Positions 1,070 to 9,398 of a DNA stretch of 10,618 nucleotides are shown piece by piece; within the stretch, counting starts at the first letter, position 1; each line of letters starts with the position of its first letter. The notes under the pieces were generated by a model that did not search any database, was not told the origin of the DNA, and was given only the letters and a program-made list of their open reading frames with translations. Made by a program: the position numbers and the translations under genes. The DNA is taken from assembly GCA_037381445.1 (NCBI GenBank), contig JARRQT010000146.1, positions 8,617-19,234 of the forward strand, given 5' to 3'. The stretch is from Calditrichia bacterium. Lineage in GTDB: Bacteria > Calditrichota > Calditrichia > RBG-13-44-9.

Positions 1070-1444
1070 ATGCGCTGGTCCTTGCTAGCCCTTTTCTTTT
1101 TTTCAATTCCTGCCCTTTTGATGACCGATTGCTCTCCCAAGTCCCGCTTAACGCCTGAGGCAAAAGCCAAGTTGGATCCATCCCTGCAAAAACTGCTCAT
1201 GACCGGAAAAGGCGATCCGAATCATTATGGCATAAACACATTGCCAGATGGTTCCAGGGTTTATAGTGTCATCATTCGAACCAATGATCCCGAAGCCCTG
1301 CGCAAGGCGGGTATAAAAGTTGGCAGTGTATTCGGCGACGTGGTGACAGCCCGGTTAACTATCAAAGAGCTGCGCAAGGTTGCTGAAATGCCCGCCGTTC
1401 GGTCCATCGAAAACAGTACAAAAAATTATCCCTCCAACCAATAA
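1070..1444 (+). CDS. Exported 124-aa protein (possible lipoprotein); stand-alone paralog of the prodomain of the downstream S8 protease
   Basis: Strong RBS GGAGG 5 nt before ATG. The hydrophobic signal MRWSLLALFFFSIPALLMTD is followed by Cys (atypical lipobox). The mature part aligns by eye with roughly residues 29-128 of the 1460..4207 protein. Only 15 nt separate it from the next gene. Confidence 0.85.
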   Translation: MRWSLLALFFFSIPALLMTDCSPKSRLTPEAKAKLDPSLQKLLMTGKGDPNHYGINTLPDGSRVYSVIIRTNDPEALRKAGIKVGSVFGDVVTARLTIKELRKVAEMPAVRSIENSTKNYPSNQ

Positions 1445-1459: not shown

Positions 1460-4207
1460 ATGTTAAGAAGATCGTTCTATTCCATATTTTTGTTTTTCAC
1501 AATATTCTGTCTCACCGGTCTGGCATCCGGACCGCTGAGCTCTGAGGCACTGCAGAAACTCCATCCCTATTTCCAAAAGGTCCTGGCCCATGCTTACAGC
1601 AGCCTGAATCTGAATCTGCCTCAGCCGGAAGCCTCAATATTGGCAAATTCCGCCGGACAGCCGCTCTATCCGGCAATCATCTATCTGCAGGACAGCCGTG
1701 AGGTCCGGGAACAGGGTGTTCATTTGAATTCGGTTTATGACAATTTTGTGACCGCCCAATTAACGCCGGCGCAGATGCTAAAATTAGTTCCGCTGAAATC
1801 AGTTCGCTATATCGATCGCGGCACCCGCAACCGGCCGGTACTGAATGTGAGCGTTCCGCAGACCGGCGCTTATCTGGTGCACAACGGCGCCATCAATGGT
1901 GTGGCGTATGAGGGGGAAAGTGCCATCGTCTTTGTTTATGATTCCGGCATAGACTGGAAACATCTGGCTTTCAGAGATCCCGGTGATACTACCAAAAGCC
2001 GCATTCTTGCTATCTGGGACCAGACTCTCACTCCTCAGGGTTCGGAGCATTCTCCCACCGGATTCAATTATGGTGTTGAATACACCCAGGCCGAGATCAA
2101 TAATGAGCTCGACGGCACGCCGGCCAATTTTGTCAGAACGGAAGACATAGAAGGCCACGGCACGCATGTCACGGGGATCGCGGCCGGGAATGCGGCATAT
2201 TCGGAACTGTATATCGGTGTCGCTCCCAAGGCGGATATCATTATGGTAAAGGGCGGTGACGCCAGCTTCAGCGAGGCCCAGGCGATTGACGGCCTGACCT
2301 ACGCCCAGAACAAATCAACTGAATTCGGCGAGCCGGTAGCGGTGAACTGGAGTTTTGGTTCCCAGGTGGGCCCCCATGACGGAACCCTGCCCTACGAAAT
2401 CGCTGCGAATCAGTTCAGCCAGCAGCCGGGAAGAGTTGTGTCCATTGCCGCGGGAAATGAAGGTGCCGATAATATTCATGTTTCGGGGAGCATTGCTTCA
2501 GGCAGCTCGGTGGTTTTCCAGATGGATGTGCCCGGCTACACCCCCAGCTCGTCCGCAAACAACGACGAGTTCCTTCTGGATATCTGGTATAACGGCACCG
2601 AAACCGTCACAGCAACTGTCAAATCACCCAACAATATCAGCCTTGAGATGGGGCCGGGCAACAGCGGAACGGGACCCAACAGCTCCGACGGAACCATCGA
2701 CCTTGCGAATGTCACCAGCACAATCAACGGTCAGAAGAATATATTTTTGGATGTGTATGATGCAAATGCCAGCACGCCGCCCGCTTCGGGAACATGGACA
2801 TTAACACTTTCCGGGGCATCGGGAACAATTGCATATGATGGCTGGCTGGGACTGAACACCGTTGGAAATGCCACCGTCACAGTAGCGGGCGGAAATAACA
2901 ACAAAACCGTGGGGATGCCCGCTACCGCCCAGCAACCGGTTGCGGTGGGCTCATATGTCACCAAGTGGTACTGGTCGCCGTACAGCGGGGGCGTCGTTAC
3001 ATATGATCCCAGCACCTATGGAATTGATGCCATTTCCAACTTCAGCAGCATTGGCCCTACCCGCGACAACCGGCAGAAACCGGATATCGCGGCACCCGGC
3101 CAGGGTATCGCCGCTCCCAAATCCAATTTAAGCTCTCCAAATCCGTCTTTTGTTCTCGCTGGACAGGAGTATGTCATCGAACAGGGCACCAGTATGGCTG
3201 CTCCTCATATTACCGGGACCGCAGCGCTATTTCTGGGCAATAATCCCTCCCTCACTTCAGCGGATTTCAAAACGGCAATTACGGGAAATACCGATACGGA
3301 CCTCTTCACCGGAACGGTTCCCAATTATGTGTGGGGATACGGAAAACTGGACGTTTTTAAATCCCTCTATAAGACCGTGACCGGAAGCCAGTCGCAAAGG
3401 ACCATTCTCGCTTATGAGAAAAATCTCTCCCAGAGCTTTAATCCGGCGCCTTCCCGCCTGCTGGCGCTGCGGTTCACGCCAACTTTCTCCGGCAGAGTCA
3501 CGGGGATGTTCCTCCGCCTAGGCCAAATTACCGGCAGCGGACCGTTGCACTGCGCCGTTTATACGAATACTTCCGGCAGTCTTGCCGGCATTCCCGGCAC
3601 AATGCTGGGAAAAACCGTGGATGTGCCATTCGAGAGATTCATTCTGGGCTCCTACAATTATATTGATTTGATGGGAGCGGAAGTGGACGTTATGGGAGGT
3701 ACGGATTACCAGCTTGTGGTTTCCTGGGACAATGCCTCTGACAATCTGATTTTCATGGGTGGCAATCAGTCCGTATCTGAACACCGCTCATCCATCAACA
3801 AAAGCGGGACCTGGTATAACCTGGGTGATCCGGCTTCGGGCACTACTGCCTTGGACCTGAGCCTGCGGATTGAGGTCACCGATGCAGCGGGTCTGAATGC
3901 AATCGCTTCTTCTGTTGTGCAAAAAGCGGAAACATTTGAACTGTTCCAGAATTTCCCCAATCCGTTTAATCCGGCAACAAAAATACGATACTGGGTTCCG
4001 GAGCACGGCAAGATAACGCTGACCGTTTTTGACATTCTGGGGAAAAAGGTCAAAACCCTGGTCAATCGAGAACAGCCGGCCGGAGAATACGAGGTTAACT
4101 GGGATGGTACCGACGAGCGGCAAAACAAAGCTTCCACAGGCGTTTATTTCTACCGGCTGGGAAACGGCCAGCAGATTGTTACCAGGAAGATGCTGCTGAT
4201 CCGATAA
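1460..4207 (+). CDS. Secreted S8 (subtilisin-like) serine peptidase, CspA/CspB-like with an inserted beta domain and a C-terminal FlgD-Ig/T9SS type A sorting-like domain
   Basis: RBS GAGG and a signal peptide. Catalytic motifs are DSGID (D161, nt 1940), HGTHVTGIAAG (H233, nt 2156), oxyanion AAGNEG and GTSMAAPH (S578, nt 3191); also FSSIGP, KPDIAAPG and WGYGKLD. The C-terminal tail reads 'FELFQNFPNPFNPATKIRY...GVYFYRL...TRKMLLIR'. Confidence 0.95.
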   Translation: MLRRSFYSIFLFFTIFCLTGLASGPLSSEALQKLHPYFQKVLAHAYSSLNLNLPQPEASILANSAGQPLYPAIIYLQDSREVREQGVHLNSVYDNFVTAQLTPAQMLKLVPLKSVRYIDRGTRNRPVLNVSVPQTGAYLVHNGAINGVAYEGESAIVFVYDSGIDWKHLAFRDPGDTTKSRILAIWDQTLTPQGSEHSPTGFNYGVEYTQAEINNELDGTPANFVRTEDIEGHGTHVTGIAAGNAAYSELYIGVAPKADIIMVKGGDASFSEAQAIDGLTYAQNKSTEFGEPVAVNWSFGSQVGPHDGTLPYEIAANQFSQQPGRVVSIAAGNEGADNIHVSGSIASGSSVVFQMDVPGYTPSSSANNDEFLLDIWYNGTETVTATVKSPNNISLEMGPGNSGTGPNSSDGTIDLANVTSTINGQKNIFLDVYDANASTPPASGTWTLTLSGASGTIAYDGWLGLNTVGNATVTVAGGNNNKTVGMPATAQQPVAVGSYVTKWYWSPYSGGVVTYDPSTYGIDAISNFSSIGPTRDNRQKPDIAAPGQGIAAPKSNLSSPNPSFVLAGQEYVIEQGTSMAAPHITGTAALFLGNNPSLTSADFKTAITGNTDTDLFTGTVPNYVWGYGKLDVFKSLYKTVTGSQSQRTILAYEKNLSQSFNPAPSRLLALRFTPTFSGRVTGMFLRLGQITGSGPLHCAVYTNTSGSLAGIPGTMLGKTVDVPFERFILGSYNYIDLMGAEVDVMGGTDYQLVVSWDNASDNLIFMGGNQSVSEHRSSINKSGTWYNLGDPASGTTALDLSLRIEVTDAAGLNAIASSVVQKAETFELFQNFPNPFNPATKIRYWVPEHGKITLTVFDILGKKVKTLVNREQPAGEYEVNWDGTDERQNKASTGVYFYRLGNGQQIVTRKMLLIR

Positions 4208-4413: not shown

Positions 4414-4442
4414 TTGATTATTTTTCTTCCGACAAATATATT
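4414..4442 (+). promoter_or_regulatory. Candidate sigma70-type promoter for the 4524 radical SAM gene
   Basis: TTGATT (4414-4419), an exact 17-nt spacer, then TATATT (4437-4442), about 80 nt upstream of the ATG at 4524. Confidence 0.5.
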
Positions 4443-4523
4443 ATTTCAAATCCGGGAAATCCCGGCAGCAAATATTCCCGAACGTTTATTTTTATAGCGT
4501 CTCTCTGGTAAAGGGGATGTCCA

Positions 4524-6038
4524 ATGGGATATAAAATTGTCCTGACCTGCGACCGCACCATGGCCAGCGCCTACCACGGACTCATGTTTCTGGGTTTCAG
4601 CGCCTGCATCCCCCAGCATATTCTTCCCGATTGGCTTTATTACGCCATTTTCTCTCCCAGCGCCCCTACCGATAAAACAGGCCGGATGCTGCATGCCAAT
4701 TACGGCATGCGAAAAATTGAGGCGGCGCTGCTGGCTGACGGCTTCCGGCGGGAAGACATCATTGTGGCGCACCCCGACCAGCTTGACAAGGTGGTTGACG
4801 GTAAGACGAAGATCATCTCCATCAGCTCCAATGATCCGCTTGGTATCGGCCCGGCGACTTCCACCTTCACCGAGCTTCTGGGAGGAGAAGGGCGAATGGC
4901 TTTCAAATTGCGCGAGCTGCTGAACCACCCGGCCATCCGCGCCCATCAGCCCACCATTTTCCTGGGAGGCCCCGGGGCGTGGCAGCTGGCGGTTAACCCC
5001 GGGAAGCAGCAGGAACTGGGAGTCCACTGCGTGGTGGTGGGTGAAGGAGAAGTCACCGCGCCCCGCCTTTTCCGGCAGACCCTGAACGGAGACGGCTCCC
5101 GGATAGACACGGTTGTTGAGGGCGAATTTGCTGAAGATGATAGAATCCCGGATATTGTCGGGGGAAGCATTGTGGGCATCATCGAAGCCACCCGGGGATG
5201 TGCCCGGCATTGCGCCTTCTGCGTTCCGTCCGTAAGAAAAGTCCGCTCGCGGCCGCTGGAAAATATTCTCCATGAAACGCGGGTCAATGTGGAGGCGGGC
5301 CACGGCGGCGTGATCCTGCACGGCGAGGATATCCTGCTTTACCAGTCCGATGGTCTGAAGGTAAACGCCGACGCGGTGATCGAGCTGTTCGATAAAGTTT
5401 ATAGTCATCCCGAGATCGCGTGGGTGGGCGCCAGCCATGCTTCGCTCTCCTCGGCGCTGAGTTCCCCGCACACCGTGGAACGGATTTCCCGTATCCTTGA
5501 ACTGGGCACGGCAAAACATCCCTGCGGCTATTTCCAGATCGGCATCGAGACCGGCAGCCCCAAACTGATCGCCCGGCACATGAGGGGAAAGGTCTATCCC
5601 TACAAACCGGAAAAATGGCCGAGAGTGGTCCGCGAGGGTTTCCGCCTCTTCCACGAAAACCACATTATTGGGTGTTCCACGCTAATTCTGGGCCTGCCGG
5701 GAGAGGAGGAAGAAGATGTCGTGAAGACCACAGAGCTGATCCGCTCCCTGCGCCCCTACCAGAGCGTCATCGTGCCGCTGCTCTTCACCCCCATGCAGAC
5801 CACGCGGCTGGAATATTCCAAACCGCTTTTGAAAAAGGATCTCACAGCGCGGCATTACGAACTCATTTCTGCCTGCTGGGACCATAACCTGGACTGGTTC
5901 CCCGAACTCTGGTCGGTTTACGGGCGTTACAGCAATTTTTTCCTCAAAAACGCCATTGCATTATTCCTGAAATACGGCACCATTCCCATCCGCCATATGA
6001 TTCACCGCAATGCCCGGAAACACGGGGCACAGATATAA
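4524..6038 (+). CDS. B12-binding-domain radical SAM protein resembling the archaeal Grs/Gms (GDGT ring synthase / GMGT synthase) family
   Basis: RBS AAGGGG. The CxxxCxxC motif is RGCARHCAFC (C226/C230/C233, nt 5199-5222); also GGPGAWQ, VVVGEGE, GIETGS and LILGLPGE. The motifs 'IVLTCDRT...YHG..FLGF', 'YGMRKIEAAL', 'SHASL', 'PYKPE.W' and 'LRPY.S.IVPL.F.PM' match my recollection of Grs-like proteins. The radical SAM call is certain; the subfamily is less so. Confidence 0.85.
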   Translation: MGYKIVLTCDRTMASAYHGLMFLGFSACIPQHILPDWLYYAIFSPSAPTDKTGRMLHANYGMRKIEAALLADGFRREDIIVAHPDQLDKVVDGKTKIISISSNDPLGIGPATSTFTELLGGEGRMAFKLRELLNHPAIRAHQPTIFLGGPGAWQLAVNPGKQQELGVHCVVVGEGEVTAPRLFRQTLNGDGSRIDTVVEGEFAEDDRIPDIVGGSIVGIIEATRGCARHCAFCVPSVRKVRSRPLENILHETRVNVEAGHGGVILHGEDILLYQSDGLKVNADAVIELFDKVYSHPEIAWVGASHASLSSALSSPHTVERISRILELGTAKHPCGYFQIGIETGSPKLIARHMRGKVYPYKPEKWPRVVREGFRLFHENHIIGCSTLILGLPGEEEEDVVKTTELIRSLRPYQSVIVPLLFTPMQTTRLEYSKPLLKKDLTARHYELISACWDHNLDWFPELWSVYGRYSNFFLKNAIALFLKYGTIPIRHMIHRNARKHGAQI

Positions 6039-6104: not shown

Positions 6105-6827
6105 CTATTCATCCTCTGATGTGGAAAAAATGTAGCCTACCGAGCGCACGCTTTTAATATAAACCGGCTGGGCAGGGTCCGGCTCGAAATATTTCCGCAG
6201 CCGCATGATAAAATTATCAATGGTGCGGGTTTCGATTTCGGAGCTGGTATTCCAGACATTTTCCAGCAGATCCTTGCGGGACACAATGGTATTCCTGTGA
6301 TCGATCAGATATTTGAGCACCATGGCCTCGTGGAATGTCAATTGGAATTGCCTGCGGTCCGCCACGCAGCTGAAATCCCGGAAATCAATTTCATTCCTGC
6401 CGAATTTAAAGACCGGATTCTGATCGGCGGTATCCTTATACCACGCTTTCCGTTTCAGCATGCCCGCGACCCGCAGCAGAAGCTCCTGCAGGTGGAACGG
6501 TTTGGTCAGATAATCATCCGCTCCCAGTTCCAGACCCCGGATGCGGTCCTTGACGCCCGCCCTGGCGGATAAAATGAGGATGGGAATCCGGGGGTATTCC
6601 CTGCGGGCGATTTTAGCAATTTCGAAACCGTCCAGGTACGGCACCATAATGTCGAGGATAATAAGATCGAATTCCGCCGATCTGATAAACTGGGCTGCTT
6701 CCTTCCCGTTCTTTGCCCATATGACTTCGTAGCCTTCTTCCGTAAGATTGAATTCCAGCCCCAATCCCAGCGTTTCCTCGTCCTCCACCAGCAGAATTCT
6801 GCTTTTATCAACAAAATCATTCCCCAT
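6105..6827 (-). CDS. OmpR/PhoB-family DNA-binding response regulator
   Basis: Receiver domain: ILLVEDE, LIILDIMVPYLDG (phospho-Asp), ILILSA and GADDYLTKPF. Winged helix: VSRKDLLENVW...TRTIDNFIMRLRKYFE...IKSVRSVGY. Start ATG 6827 is preferred (AGGA 8 nt upstream, overlaps the kinase stop); the ORF track extends it to 6851. Confidence 0.95.
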   Translation of the reverse strand: MGNDFVDKSRILLVEDEETLGLGLEFNLTEEGYEVIWAKNGKEAAQFIRSAEFDLIILDIMVPYLDGFEIAKIARREYPRIPILILSARAGVKDRIRGLELGADDYLTKPFHLQELLLRVAGMLKRKAWYKDTADQNPVFKFGRNEIDFRDFSCVADRRQFQLTFHEAMVLKYLIDHRNTIVSRKDLLENVWNTSSEIETRTIDNFIMRLRKYFEPDPAQPVYIKSVRSVGYIFSTSEDE

Positions 6828-7842
6828 GACCGGCATCCTGCTCTTTCTCATATTTTTGTGTTTTCTTTAAAAGCTGTTTCAGATAACGGTTCCCGGTCCT
6901 CCCAAAAATCGGGAACTGCAGGCGGAAAGTGGTCCCCAGATTTTTCCCCTTGCTGAAAACCGATATTTTGCCGTTGTGATGTTTCATAATCTCCCTCGCC
7001 ATATAAAGCCCCAGTCCGGTGCCCTTCACATTGGGCGAATCCGCCTGATAGACGCGGAAGAACTTGTTGAATAACCGCTTCTGATATTTGGCCGGAATCC
7101 CGATTCCACGGTCGGTTAACTCCACATAAAAGAACTTTTCATTGCACCTCATCCGCACCGCCAGTTCAAATTCGCCTTCCGTATATTTGATAGCGTTGTC
7201 AATCAGGTTGTCAAAAACCGTTTTCATATTCGCCCGGTCAAAGACGCACTCACAGGATCCGTTCCCCGAAATTTTTACCGAGCTTTCCAGCAGATTAAAT
7301 TTTTCCGCAGATTCTTTGATCAAATCCGTTACCATATCTCCGGCTTCATAAACCTGATAGCGAAGTGCGGCTTTCTGCTGCTCCAGCACATTCATATCCA
7401 GAATTGAATTGATCAGGTTTTTGAGGCGATAGGTATCTTTCAGCATCAGCCGGATAAATTCTTCCTGCTTTTCGGCGGATACCTTGCGCAGATTCAAAGT
7501 TTCCAGATATAACTGGATGGTCGCCAAGGGGGATTTAAGTTCATGGGTGAAATTCGCAATAAAATTGTCATAAAAACGGGTAACATTAATCTGCCGGTTT
7601 AAAAAAATGAAGATCAGGTACATCCCCCACAAAAGCAATACCAGCATGATCAATCCAATGATTAACGCCAGGAGGTTCGCCCCTTTTGTGATGATCTGGG
7701 GAGAGAGATTATCACCCACCTGTTTAAGAATGATGTAATTTGAGACATACCAGTATATCCATAATCCCAGCAATGACAGCCAGGCCAGCTGTGCCATGAT
7801 AAACACCAGGATGGGATGCAGGAAACCGATTCGTTTTTTCAT
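6817..7842 (-). CDS. Membrane-bound sensor histidine kinase (2 TM, HisKA + HATPase_c)
   Basis: Two hydrophobic helices separated by a loop of about 22 aa. H-box FTHELKSPL (H100), N-box NLIDNAIKY, G1 DRGIGI, F-box LFNKFFR and G2 GTGLGLY. It overlaps the response regulator start. Confidence 0.95.
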   Translation of the reverse strand: MKKRIGFLHPILVFIMAQLAWLSLLGLWIYWYVSNYIILKQVGDNLSPQIITKGANLLALIIGLIMLVLLLWGMYLIFIFLNRQINVTRFYDNFIANFTHELKSPLATIQLYLETLNLRKVSAEKQEEFIRLMLKDTYRLKNLINSILDMNVLEQQKAALRYQVYEAGDMVTDLIKESAEKFNLLESSVKISGNGSCECVFDRANMKTVFDNLIDNAIKYTEGEFELAVRMRCNEKFFYVELTDRGIGIPAKYQKRLFNKFFRVYQADSPNVKGTGLGLYMAREIMKHHNGKISVFSKGKNLGTTFRLQFPIFGRTGNRYLKQLLKKTQKYEKEQDAGHGE

Positions 7843-7961: not shown

Positions 7962-9398
7962 ATGAATATCTTATTAATCTATCCTGAGGCCCCTGATACC
8001 TTCTGGAGTTTCCGTGCTGCCCTGAAGTTCATATCCAAAAAATCTTCCGAGCCGCCCCTGGGACTGATCACCATAGCGGGGCTTCTGCCTTCATCCTGGA
8101 ACAAAAAACTGGTGGACATGAATGTATCCGCGCTCAGCGACAGCCAGATCCGCTGGGCGGATTACGTCTTTCTGAGCGGGATGAATGTCCATTTGAAATC
8201 CATGAAAGAAGTCATCGGCCGCTGTAAAAAACTCGGGGCCAAAATTGTGCTGGGAGGGCCGTACTGCACCGTTGACAGCCAGGAATTTGAAGACGTGGAT
8301 CACCTCGTGCTCAATGAAGCCGAAATAACACTCCCCATGTTCCTGCGAGATCTGGAAAACGGCAATCCAAAGCACGTCTATCAATCCGGGGAATTCCCCG
8401 ATCTGTCACTGACGCCGCAACCGGCATGGGAGCTACTGGAAAAAGACAAGTATTCCTGTATGAGCGTTCAATATTCCCGCGGGTGCCCCTATAATTGCGA
8501 GTTCTGCGCCATCACGGTACTGAATGGACGCCGTCCGCGGACAAAAAGCAAGGAGCAGTTTATCGGCGAATTGGAATCGCTGTACCAGTTCGGCTGGACC
8601 GGCAGCGTGTTTATCGTAGACGATAATTTTATCGGCAACAAAATCAAATTGAAGAAAGAAATTCTGCCCGCTCTCATTGAATGGGGGGAATCCTGTGGTT
8701 TTCCGTTCAATTATACCACAGAAGTTTCCATCAATCTGTCGGATGACGAAGAATTGGTGGAACTAATGGCCCGGGCCGGTTTTGATCATGCCTTTGTCGG
8801 TATTGAAACGACCAATGAAGACAGCCTCACAGAGTGCGGAAAATCGCAGAACAAACAGCGCGATCTGGTGGCTTTTATTGTCGGTTTTGATAACGACCCG
8901 CCCAACATTTTCCAGCAGCAGATCCGCTTTATACAGAAAAGCGGGATTGTTACCGCCATGGTCGGCCTTCTGAATGCACCTTCCGGGACCCGGCTTTATG
9001 AACGATTGAAGCGGGAAAACCGGCTGCTCAAAGTGATGAGCGGCAACAACACGGACGGCTCCACGAATTTCATTCCTAAAATGGATTATCACAAGCTGAT
9101 TGAAGGATACCGGGAAATCATCCATACCATCTACTCCCCCGCCGCCTATTACGAGCGGGTAAAAACCTTCATCAGCGATTACCGGAAAGTAAAGCTGGCC
9201 ACCCCTATCAGAATCCAGCCGCACGATGTAAGGGCCCTCTTTAAATCCTTCTGGGTGCTGGGTGCCCGGGAAAAGGGACGGCGTTTTTTCTGGAAATTGC
9301 TGCTGTTCAGCCTTTTGAAATACCCGCAGAATTTCCCGCTGGCGGTGCGGATGGCCATCTATGGATTTCATTTCCGGCAGGTCTCCCAAACCATTTGA
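7962..9398 (+). CDS. B12-binding radical SAM protein (HpnP-like / DUF4070-containing class B methyltransferase family), with an apparent internal in-frame deletion
   Basis: RBS AGGA. N-terminal B12-binding region: TFWSF...PPLGLITIAGLLP, VLGGPY and LNEAE. CxxxCxxC is SRGCPYNCEFC (C175/C179/C182, nt 8484-8507); also FIVDDNFIGN, FVGIET and FIVGFDND, followed by a helical C-terminal DUF4070-like region (TNFIPKM...IY.P..YY.R). Confidence 0.88.
   Translation: MNILLIYPEAPDTFWSFRAALKFISKKSSEPPLGLITIAGLLPSSWNKKLVDMNVSALSDSQIRWADYVFLSGMNVHLKSMKEVIGRCKKLGAKIVLGGPYCTVDSQEFEDVDHLVLNEAEITLPMFLRDLENGNPKHVYQSGEFPDLSLTPQPAWELLEKDKYSCMSVQYSRGCPYNCEFCAITVLNGRRPRTKSKEQFIGELESLYQFGWTGSVFIVDDNFIGNKIKLKKEILPALIEWGESCGFPFNYTTEVSINLSDDEELVELMARAGFDHAFVGIETTNEDSLTECGKSQNKQRDLVAFIVGFDNDPPNIFQQQIRFIQKSGIVTAMVGLLNAPSGTRLYERLKRENRLLKVMSGNNTDGSTNFIPKMDYHKLIEGYREIIHTIYSPAAYYERVKTFISDYRKVKLATPIRIQPHDVRALFKSFWVLGAREKGRRFFWKLLLFSLLKYPQNFPLAVRMAIYGFHFRQVSQTI

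What the first reader, a model, noticed from the sequence alone, without database searches (positions are those of the whole stretch)
4524..6038. Grs/Gms-like (archaeal tetraether lipid cyclase/cross-linker family) radical SAM enzyme in an apparently bacterial genome
Seen: an intact CxxxCxxC plus a collinear series of motifs (LTCDRT, FLGF, YGMRKIEAAL, DPLGIGP, GGPGAWQ, IP.I.G.S..GIIE..RGCAR.C.FC, VNV...G.ILH.EDIL.Y, SHASL, GIETGSP.L, PYKPE, LGLP.E.EEDV.KT.EL...LRPY.S..VP..F.PM). From memory these match the family containing Sulfolobus GrsA/GrsB (cyclopentane ring formation in GDGTs) and the related GMGT synthase Gms. The flanking genes are bacterial. Inference: it may cyclise or cross-link bacterial membrane-spanning lipids such as branched GDGTs/GMGTs, whose producers and enzymes are only partly known.
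Basis: partly seen in the sequence, partly recalled or inferred. Interest (0 to 1): 0.75.

Follow-up and report, generated by a model that had tools for sequence, protein, structure and literature searches.

The report
Archaeal lipid ring enzyme in bacteria
A sediment bacterium carries an intact relative of the enzyme that archaea use to close rings in their membrane lipids, plus look-alikes of most other archaeal lipid-building genes, so it likely makes ring-bearing archaeal-type lipids, which would weaken their use as purely archaeal markers; no lipid has been measured.

Summary
The ORF 4524-6038 (504 aa) is real, intact and in the GDGT ring synthase (Grs) family: 32-33% identical to Sulfolobus GrsA and GrsB (E about 1e-79), closer to each than they are to each other. 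It is not Gms-like. It belongs to a bacterial clade (named hosts all FCB group) whose nearest kin are untested archaeal Grs homologues. Archaeal-type diether genes were found in nearly all: GGGP synthase 12, DGGGP-synthase-like 13, archaeal-type geranylgeranyl reductase 13. These are common in FCB bacteria anyway, so this shows compatibility, not co-selection. The window's own genome also has Tes, so it encodes homologues for ether bonds, saturation, tail coupling and ring closure of an isoprenoid GDGT (no G1P dehydrogenase found). Best reading (0.5): it closes cyclopentane rings on phytanyl chains. Bacterial grs homologues are already in print; I found no paper linking them to the FCB ether pathway. 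The scan noted Grs before only in two archaeal windows.

The parts
4524..6038 (+). Grs-family cobalamin-type radical SAM gene, 504 aa (P0001), single copy in the genome, no operon partner
4524..5123 (+). N-terminal alpha/beta (Rossmann-like) domain, residues 1-200, predicted cobalamin-binding; begins with a hydrophobic stretch (residues 12-38)
   Evidence: AlphaFold2 model, pLDDT 92; Foldseek matches to cobalamin-dependent MgmA, TsrM, CysS, OxsB, TokK but also to MiaB/RimO; Pfam B12-binding not hit; hydrophobicity scan
5184..5741 (+). Radical SAM core, residues 221-406
   Evidence: PF04055, 63.6 bits
5199..5222 (+). CxxxCxxC (C226, C230, C233), invariant in 40 of 40 aligned relatives
5847..6020 (+). 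Two C-terminal helices (442-469, 472-499); the second is hydrophobic then basic, a likely membrane anchor (inferred)
4510..4516 (+). Shine-Dalgarno-like AAAGGGG, 7 bases before the ATG
   Evidence: sequence
4414..4442 (+). Weak sigma-70-like site (9 of 12); not evidence of function
   Evidence: 4 sites found, 1.2 expected
1460..4207 (+). Context only: S8 peptidase with FlgD/T9SS-type tail
6105..7842 (-). Context only: OmpR-type regulator (6105-6851) and histidine kinase (6817-7842), convergent on the gene

Best explanation
The gene encodes an intact Grs-family radical SAM enzyme that likely closes cyclopentane rings in the saturated isoprenoid (phytanyl or biphytanyl) chains of archaeal-type ether lipids that the bacterium is predicted to make itself. 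Shown: family membership, an intact iron-sulfur motif, and homologues in the same genome of GGGP synthase (C6:35802-36554), DGGGP synthase (C72:6831-7667), geranylgeranyl reductase (C88:11249-12448) and tetraether synthase Tes (C100:36952-38421). Inferred: GGGPS and DGGGPS build a diether, the reductase saturates it, Tes joins tails into a tetraether or macrocycle, and this enzyme, docked on the membrane by its C-terminal helix, uses two SAM-derived radicals to join a methyl branch to a methylene four carbons away, with cobalamin holding the first radical (mechanism proposed for Grs in PMC13459092). In relatives that lack Tes the substrate would be the diether itself. The clade was probably gained from archaea and passed among FCB-group bacteria.
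For: 32% to GrsA, E 3e-79 and 33% to GrsB, E 6e-80; the two references were confirmed by accession. GrsA and GrsB are the two best matches in that genome. GrsA vs GrsB is only 31%, E 9e-63; the protein keeps 82 of 137 residues shared by both, the methylase-type Saci protein 48. Nearest archaeal relatives sit in lipid clusters: gms-like, gmm-like, grs in Alkanophaga; grs then gms-like in Baldrarchaeota. The single copy in A. liquidiphilum is what a preprint calls a GrsA homologue. Among 13 bearer genomes: GGGPS 12, DGGGPS-like 13, one reductase clade 13 (support 99/98). In L070 the reductase lies directly behind grs. Best PDB matches of the host genes are archaeal or FCB lipid enzymes: 4JEJ E 2e-54, 6M31 E 3e-36, 3OZ2 E 3e-67, 7TOL E 1e-157. 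Cloacimonetes GGGPS plus DGGGPS gave archaeol-type lipid in E. coli (PMC7852524). In the own phylum grs is in 1 of 86 genomes and Tes over cut-off in 2 of 86, and they coincide.
Against: No activity or lipid data. The diether genes are common background: GGGPS 80 of 86 in the own phylum, DGGGPS-like 66 of 67, the reductase clade 19 of 67 including 12 of 12 in the host's own family and 55 of 101 Fibrobacterota, so co-occurrence is not independent proof. The genes are not clustered; only 1 of 13 bacterial loci has a lipid gene beside grs. DGGGPS-like and reductase score below the curated archaeal cut-offs. No G1P dehydrogenase family hit. 11 of 12 other bearers showed no Tes, and I found no report of ring closure on plain archaeol (titles and abstract starts only). 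The tree backbone is unresolved: the clade is in neither the GrsA nor the GrsB subclade, and no experimentally tested member of its wider clade was obtained. Bacterial Tes is reported to act on fatty-acid lipids in Acidobacteria (passage in PMC13023045).
Confidence: 0.5

Rival explanations
1. It cyclises fatty-acid-derived membrane-spanning lipids (branched GDGTs or diabolic-acid lipids) made by Mss or Tes, as the first reader and several papers propose for bacterial grs.
For: The genome has Tes and an Mss-like gene, C124:2672-4132, with the CNxxCxGC, GGE and W-Q-P-R blocks, right behind a Gmm/Cgm-like methylase (38% to the Alkanophaga neighbour, E 2e-91). 6 of 13 bearers have Tes or an Mss-like gene. 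PF09989 was found in 3 of 5 other bearers tested. Solibacter makes ringed brGDGTs and has grs homologues.
Against: 7 of 13 bearers showed neither coupling enzyme (completeness of 12 of them not given). No PF09989 in the host. The Mss call rests on motifs, with block V partly changed (IAPC for VEPC); I had no reference Mss sequence.
Confidence: 0.2
2. It acts on the same isoprenoid lipids but does other radical chemistry (methylation, desaturation, or a ring at another position or of another size).
For: Related B12-radical SAM lipid enzymes switch between methylation and desaturation (Cgm, Pgm, Ted), and Pgm and Ted accept archaeol. Unclassified Grs clades are acknowledged. The clade's nearest relatives include Methanobacterium and Methanothrix proteins with no test that I could find.
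Against: Those methylases and Ted are Gmm homologues, only about 20% identical to this protein. The tested Grs-family members that I read of (GrsA, GrsB, TK0167) all form rings.
Confidence: 0.18
3. It is a recently gained accessory gene that works on another isoprenoid (quinone tail, squalene-derived or polyprenyl lipid) or on lipids taken up from archaea, or is barely used.
For: Stand-alone gene with no conserved neighbour; 1 of 86 in its phylum; GC3 at the 98th percentile of 2101 long ORFs. The Black Sea paper suggests a different function for Cloacimonadota copies. Squalene synthesis genes lie on the Tes contig (recognised by eye).
Against: About 100 bacterial-clade clusters keep full length and 55-80% identity, with clear purifying selection, and all 13 bearers have a phytanyl-making gene set.
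Confidence: 0.1
4. It is a Gms-type cross-linking enzyme that makes H-shaped lipids.
Against: Gms is AhbD-like with SPASM/Twitch and an N-terminal extension; similarity to a Gms-like protein is E 3.4 over 20 residues; no AhbD/SPASM model is among the 9 NCBIfam hits.
Confidence: 0.02

Closest known systems
GDGT ring synthases GrsA (Saci_1585, Q4J8I0) and GrsB (Saci_0240, Q4JC22) of Sulfolobus acidocaldarius
   Same: Full-length homology, 32-33% identity, same predicted three-part build (Rossmann-like domain, partial TIM barrel, C-terminal helices), one CxxxCxxC and no SPASM-type second motif detected
   Different: Bacterial host; a separate lineage from both subclades; single copy; most bearers show no Tes; substrate untested
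Untested Grs homologues of Bathyarchaeia, Hadarchaeota, Asgard, Methanobacterium, Methanopyrus, Alkanophaga
   Same: 41-49% identity, nearest archaeal relatives; some lie in gms-gmm-grs clusters
   Different: The bacterial clade is monophyletic (99-100 support), about 30 residues shorter at the C terminus than the Bathyarchaeia forms, and stands alone in its genomes
Bacterial grs homologues in print (Acidobacteriae, Solibacter, Planctomycetota, Cloacimonadota, Aerophobetes)
   Same: Same family in bacteria; a Cloacimonadota member is in this clade (L045, 68%)
   Different: Papers read tie them to branched GDGTs or to an unknown function; the Black Sea paper has 0 mentions of GGGP, Calditrichota, KSB1 or Fibrobacter. 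Acidobacterial and planctomycete copies were not among the 80 best loci and were not placed on my trees.
FCB-group archaeal ether lipid pathway (GGGPS, DGGGPS, GGR; Villanueva et al., PMC7852524)
   Same: The host has all three homologues and, like Cloacimonetes, no G1P dehydrogenase hit
   Different: The host adds Tes and Grs, the tail-coupling and ring steps that the paper could not assess
Gms (GMGT synthase) and Gmm/Cgm/Pgm/Ted
   Same: Radical SAM enzymes acting on tetraether tails
   Different: Gms is unrelated beyond the motif; the methylase group is about 20% identical

Membership tests
Grs (GDGT ring synthase) family | BLASTP to both GrsA and GrsB at E<=1e-40, >=20% identity, >=70% coverage (criteria in bioRxiv 2022.08.15.504015) | tested here: met
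   (E 3e-79 and 6e-80, 32-33%, 90-95% of the query)
Grs (GDGT ring synthase) family | GrsA and GrsB are the best matches in S. acidocaldarius, far above the methylase Saci_1785 | tested here: met
   4e-73, 7e-72, next 7e-7; E 2e-8 to the Saci_1785 candidate
Grs (GDGT ring synthase) family | Intact CxxxCxxC radical SAM core | tested here: met
Grs (GDGT ring synthase) family | N-terminal Rossmann-like cobalamin-binding domain and C-terminal helix | tested here: inconclusive
   Fold predicted with high confidence and matches cobalamin enzymes and also MiaB/RimO; PF02310 not hit; cobalamin binding untested
Grs (GDGT ring synthase) family | Forms cyclopentane rings in GDGT | not testable with these tools
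   needs expression and LC-MS
GrsA subclade or GrsB subclade (Sulfolobales sense) | Groups with Saci GrsA or GrsB on a tree | tested here: not met
   separate lineage, backbone unresolved
GrsA' (T. kodakarensis TK0167 type) | Groups with TK0167 | not tested
   TK0167 could not be obtained (reached no Thermococcales)
Gms (GMGT synthase) | AhbD-like SPASM/Twitch core with an N-terminal extension | tested here: not met
Gmm/Cgm/Pgm/Ted | >=31% identity and E<=1e-60 to Gmm-type proteins, as for the described members | tested here: not met
   20-26% identity, E 1e-5 to 1e-9
Complete isoprenoid GDGT pathway in the host | GGGPS, DGGGPS, reductase, Tes and Grs homologues present | tested here: met
   (GGGPS and Tes above curated cut-offs; DGGGPS-like and reductase below the archaeal equivalog cut-offs)
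Complete isoprenoid GDGT pathway in the host | G1P dehydrogenase | tested here: not met
   PF13685 not found, genome 92% complete
Complete isoprenoid GDGT pathway in the host | CDP-archaeol synthase CarS | not tested
   PMC7852524 notes that bacterial CdsA can replace it

The most novel reading that the evidence does not exclude
This bacterium makes true archaeal-type, ring-bearing isoprenoid tetraethers (GDGT-1 to -4 or ringed macrocycles) with its own GGGPS, DGGGPS, reductase, Tes and Grs, and its Tes-less relatives put cyclopentane rings on archaeol: a natural mixed membrane that reaches the tetraether and ring level, and a bacterial source of lipids used as archaeal and temperature markers in anoxic sediments.
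Probability: 0.22. Interest if true: 0.9.

Novelty: new variant of a known kind. Interest (0 to 1): 0.6.

Why it matters
Ringed isoprenoid GDGTs are treated as archaeal and underlie temperature and methane proxies; FCB bacteria were shown to have the genes for archaeal diethers, but no natural mixed membrane had been shown when that paper appeared (PMC7852524 abstract). This clade gives a concrete, clonable test of whether bacteria also tailor such lipids, and offers an answer to a puzzle in print: why Cloacimonadota have grs without tes (PMC11868695). One genome supplies all five genes for reconstitution in E. coli, where archaeol and GDGT synthesis has been engineered (PMC12042123). If the substrate is instead a fatty-acid lipid, it is a candidate for the unknown branched-GDGT ring enzyme. 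Either result is useful, but bacterial grs homologues as such are known, which caps the score.

Tried and rejected
Gms kinship: rejected. Operon or conserved neighbours: none shared among 13 bacterial loci apart from two genes in two close Fibrobacterota; the window's neighbours are unrelated by family. Tes as general partner: 1 of 12 other bearers. GGGPS as a specific co-occurrence signal: looked strong (12 of 13) until the background came back 80 of 86. Chimeric or contaminant contig: rejected by second-study contigs and by bacterial genes around Tes. The 405-codon reverse ORF 4446-5663 is taken as a shadow: codon-position divergence fits the + frame, although similar reverse frames are open in 5 GC-rich relatives. 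No solved Grs structure: best PDB sequence match is MgmA, E 3e-10. No NCBIfam model passes its cut-off. TK0167 and a reference Mss were not obtained; accession look-ups for Mss-like relatives in supplements found nothing (data S1 and the PNAS SI PDF were not readable and may hold Grs and Mss classifications). Zeng et al. 2019 was not held. No RNA holder listed. The ESM Atlas gave 30 radical SAM clusters at 0.99, the first half bacterial with Planctomycetota commonest, and no function. The second structural alignment was not run. No complex prediction was run.

Full report
Observation. The ORF at 4524-6038 encodes 504 residues without a stop. Pfam finds only Radical_SAM; 9 NCBIfam models hit, none above cut-off, the best being B12-binding radical SAM and MiaB-like models. 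It is single-copy in the genome, which is 5.1 Mb, 92% complete, 2% contaminated. Neighbours are bacterial. Contigs from a second sediment study, about 95% alike, join the gene to both flanks; the best holder is a salt marsh metagenome that may be the source itself. Earlier unchecked notes call the genome Calditrichota; I did not test that.

Family. I obtained S. acidocaldarius GrsA and GrsB as proteins whose UniRef ids (Q4J8I0, Q4JC22) match those given for GrsA and GrsB in PMC13023045. The protein is 32% identical to GrsA (E 3e-79) and 33% to GrsB (E 6e-80), which passes the published homologue criteria. In one all-against-all run it scores 5e-74 and 5e-79 to them, while they score 9e-63 to each other; it keeps 82 of 137 residues common to both, against 48 for the B12 methylase that I take to be Saci_1785 (that locus tag is inferred). 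Relatives occur in 235 of 251 Thermoproteota genomes searched. The model (pLDDT 92) shows the build described for Grs in PMC13459092; its best structural matches are MgmA, MiaB/RimO, TsrM and CysS. Gms is a different family and a Gms-like protein matches only at E 3.4.

Clade. About 100 of the best 120 hits are 50-80% identical and about 503 residues long; those with names are KSB1, Chitinivibrionales, Fibrobacterota or 'bacterium'. The bacterial rows form one clade (100 in FastTree, 171 rows; 99 in IQ-TREE quick, 66 rows chosen from them). FastTree puts it in a 59-row group (99) with Bathyarchaeia, Hadarchaeota, Asgard, Methanobacterium, Methanopyrus, Methanothrix and Alkanophaga (names); IQ-TREE gives the matching group only 88. 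Both keep it apart from the GrsA and GrsB subclades and leave the backbone open; the outgroup was not monophyletic, so there is no reliable root. Transfer from archaea is therefore inferred, from nesting among archaeal rows, from presence in 1 of 86 genomes of the own phylum and from GC3 at the 98th percentile. Archaeal members sit in lipid clusters: gms-like, gmm-like, grs in Alkanophaga and grs, gms-like in Baldrarchaeota.

What could the substrate be? The host has Tes at 613 bits against a cut-off of 450, E 1e-157 to the solved M. jannaschii enzyme, among bacterial genes; its nearest named relative is from Kryptoniota. Tes over cut-off is in 2 of 86 genomes of the phylum (4 of 86 at E<=1e-60). 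But only 1 of the 12 other bearers has Tes. An Mss-like gene (motif blocks from the supplement of PMC13159169) has relatives at E<1e-50 in 5 of 13 bearers and at E<=1e-20 in 8 of 13. Seven bearers showed neither at the stricter level; their completeness is not given. By contrast GGGP synthase is in 12 of 13, a DGGGP-synthase-like gene in 13 of 13 and one clade of geranylgeranyl reductase in 13 of 13, weakly joined (80/87) to euryarchaeal reductases; in L070 it directly follows grs. The backgrounds temper this: GGGPS 80 of 86; for I gave 67 of the 85 other phylum genomes, leaving out 18 at or below 85% completeness, and found DGGGPS-like in 66 and the reductase in 43 at E<=1e-30, 19 at E<1e-65 (two whole families, one being the host's); 8 sampled weaker hits from the phylum fell outside the clade. 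In Fibrobacterota the reductase is in 55 of 101, three bearers included. So bearers always lie within the range of the phytanyl-diether gene set, but kinship could explain much of that. Ger/PlsA (PF09989) was not found in the host but was in 3 of 5 other bearers tested. No Gms orthologue (best E 2e-25) and no G1P dehydrogenase family hit were found in the host. A methylmalonyl-CoA mutase gene indicates B12 use.

Mechanism. Shown: family, intact motif, and host homologues whose best PDB matches are GGGPS, DGGGPS, DGGGPL reductase and Tes. Inferred: diether synthesis, saturation, tail coupling, then ring closure between a methyl branch and a methylene four carbons away through two hydrogen abstractions with cobalamin holding the first radical, as proposed for Grs. 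For Tes-less relatives the substrate would be archaeol; my search for ringed plain archaeol listed 6 papers, none on that subject by title or abstract start, while macrocyclic archaeols with possible rings are reported. I give 0.5 to ring closure on isoprenoid ethers, 0.2 to fatty-acid spanning lipids, 0.18 to other chemistry, 0.1 to other substrates, 0.02 to Gms.

What is known. Bacterial grs homologues are in print for Acidobacteriae, Solibacter, Planctomycetota and Cloacimonadota and Aerophobetes, in each case untested and read as branched-GDGT enzymes or as of other function. The FCB ether pathway is in PMC7852524. In searches of the held library I saw no paper joining the two, or naming an FCB genome with all five genes; most subscription journals are missing, and the PNAS SI PDF, data S1 of PMC13159169 and bioRxiv supplements were not readable. 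What I saw: PMC11214058 parts 1-3 of 7 and supplement searches; bioRxiv 2025.10.20.683597 abstract, sections 5, 6, 16, first parts of 3 and 9, passages; PMC13159169 passages, first part of section 9, supplement passages; PMC7852524 passages and section 25; passages only of PMC11868695, PMC13459092, PMC13023045, PMC10087280, PMC12107092, PMC13109099, PMC8941075, PMC12042123, bioRxiv 2022.08.15.504015 and 2023.10.20.563219; Zeng et al. 2019 not seen.

Verdict. A real, intact, new bacterial variant of a known family. Interest 0.6; the bold reading, a bacterium making ringed isoprenoid tetraethers, has about 0.22 probability and would merit 0.9.

Noticed in passing
window 7962-9398, joint at 8872/8873: The DUF4070 B12-radical SAM gene lacks 45 in-frame bases that contigs of three runs carry at this point, so the window has an assembly gap here, not a real deletion. 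Its function was not studied.
   Followed up: yes
G000:C124:1219-4132 (L219): A Gmm/Cgm-like B12 methylase (33% to the Saci_1785 candidate, E 2e-68) directly followed by an Mss-like gene: a candidate pair for making and methylating fatty-acid spanning lipids. Two contig-end fragments (C251:4251-4826, C154:13977-14843) look like a second copy of the methylase.
   Followed up: partly
G000:C100:26455-39555 (L011): Tes lies tail to tail with a cardiolipin-synthase-like gene, and the same contig carries CdsA-like and squalene-synthesis-like (hpnCDE-like, by eye) genes about 6-10 kb away.
   Followed up: partly
G000:C88:10274-12448 (L221): The archaeal-type reductase follows a second, divergent UbiA-family gene. 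This reductase clade is in all 12 sampled genomes of the host's family and 7 of 7 of one other family, but not in the rest of the phylum sample.
   Followed up: partly
L259 (G092:C420:11199-13515): In the Melioribacteraceae bearer the reductase and the DGGGPS-like gene are adjacent and divergent; in the Cloacimonadota bearer (L176) polyprenyl synthase, DGGGPS and GGGPS are in a row.
   Followed up: no
L050 and L055: One unclassified bacterial assembly has two copies of the Grs clade, 62% identical, recalling GrsA/GrsB pairs.
   Followed up: no
P0496-P0537: The host's Tes belongs to a group of about 40 clusters at 52-76% identity, one named Kryptoniota: possibly an FCB-specific Tes clade.
   Followed up: no
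window 1070-1444: 124-aa lipoprotein-like ORF with no Pfam or NCBIfam hit just before the S8 peptidase; it resembles a protease propeptide by eye.
   Followed up: no
L080, L127, L131 (Methanobacterium MAGs): Peat Methanobacterium genomes carry two close copies of this Grs lineage; I found no lipid test for them.
   Followed up: no
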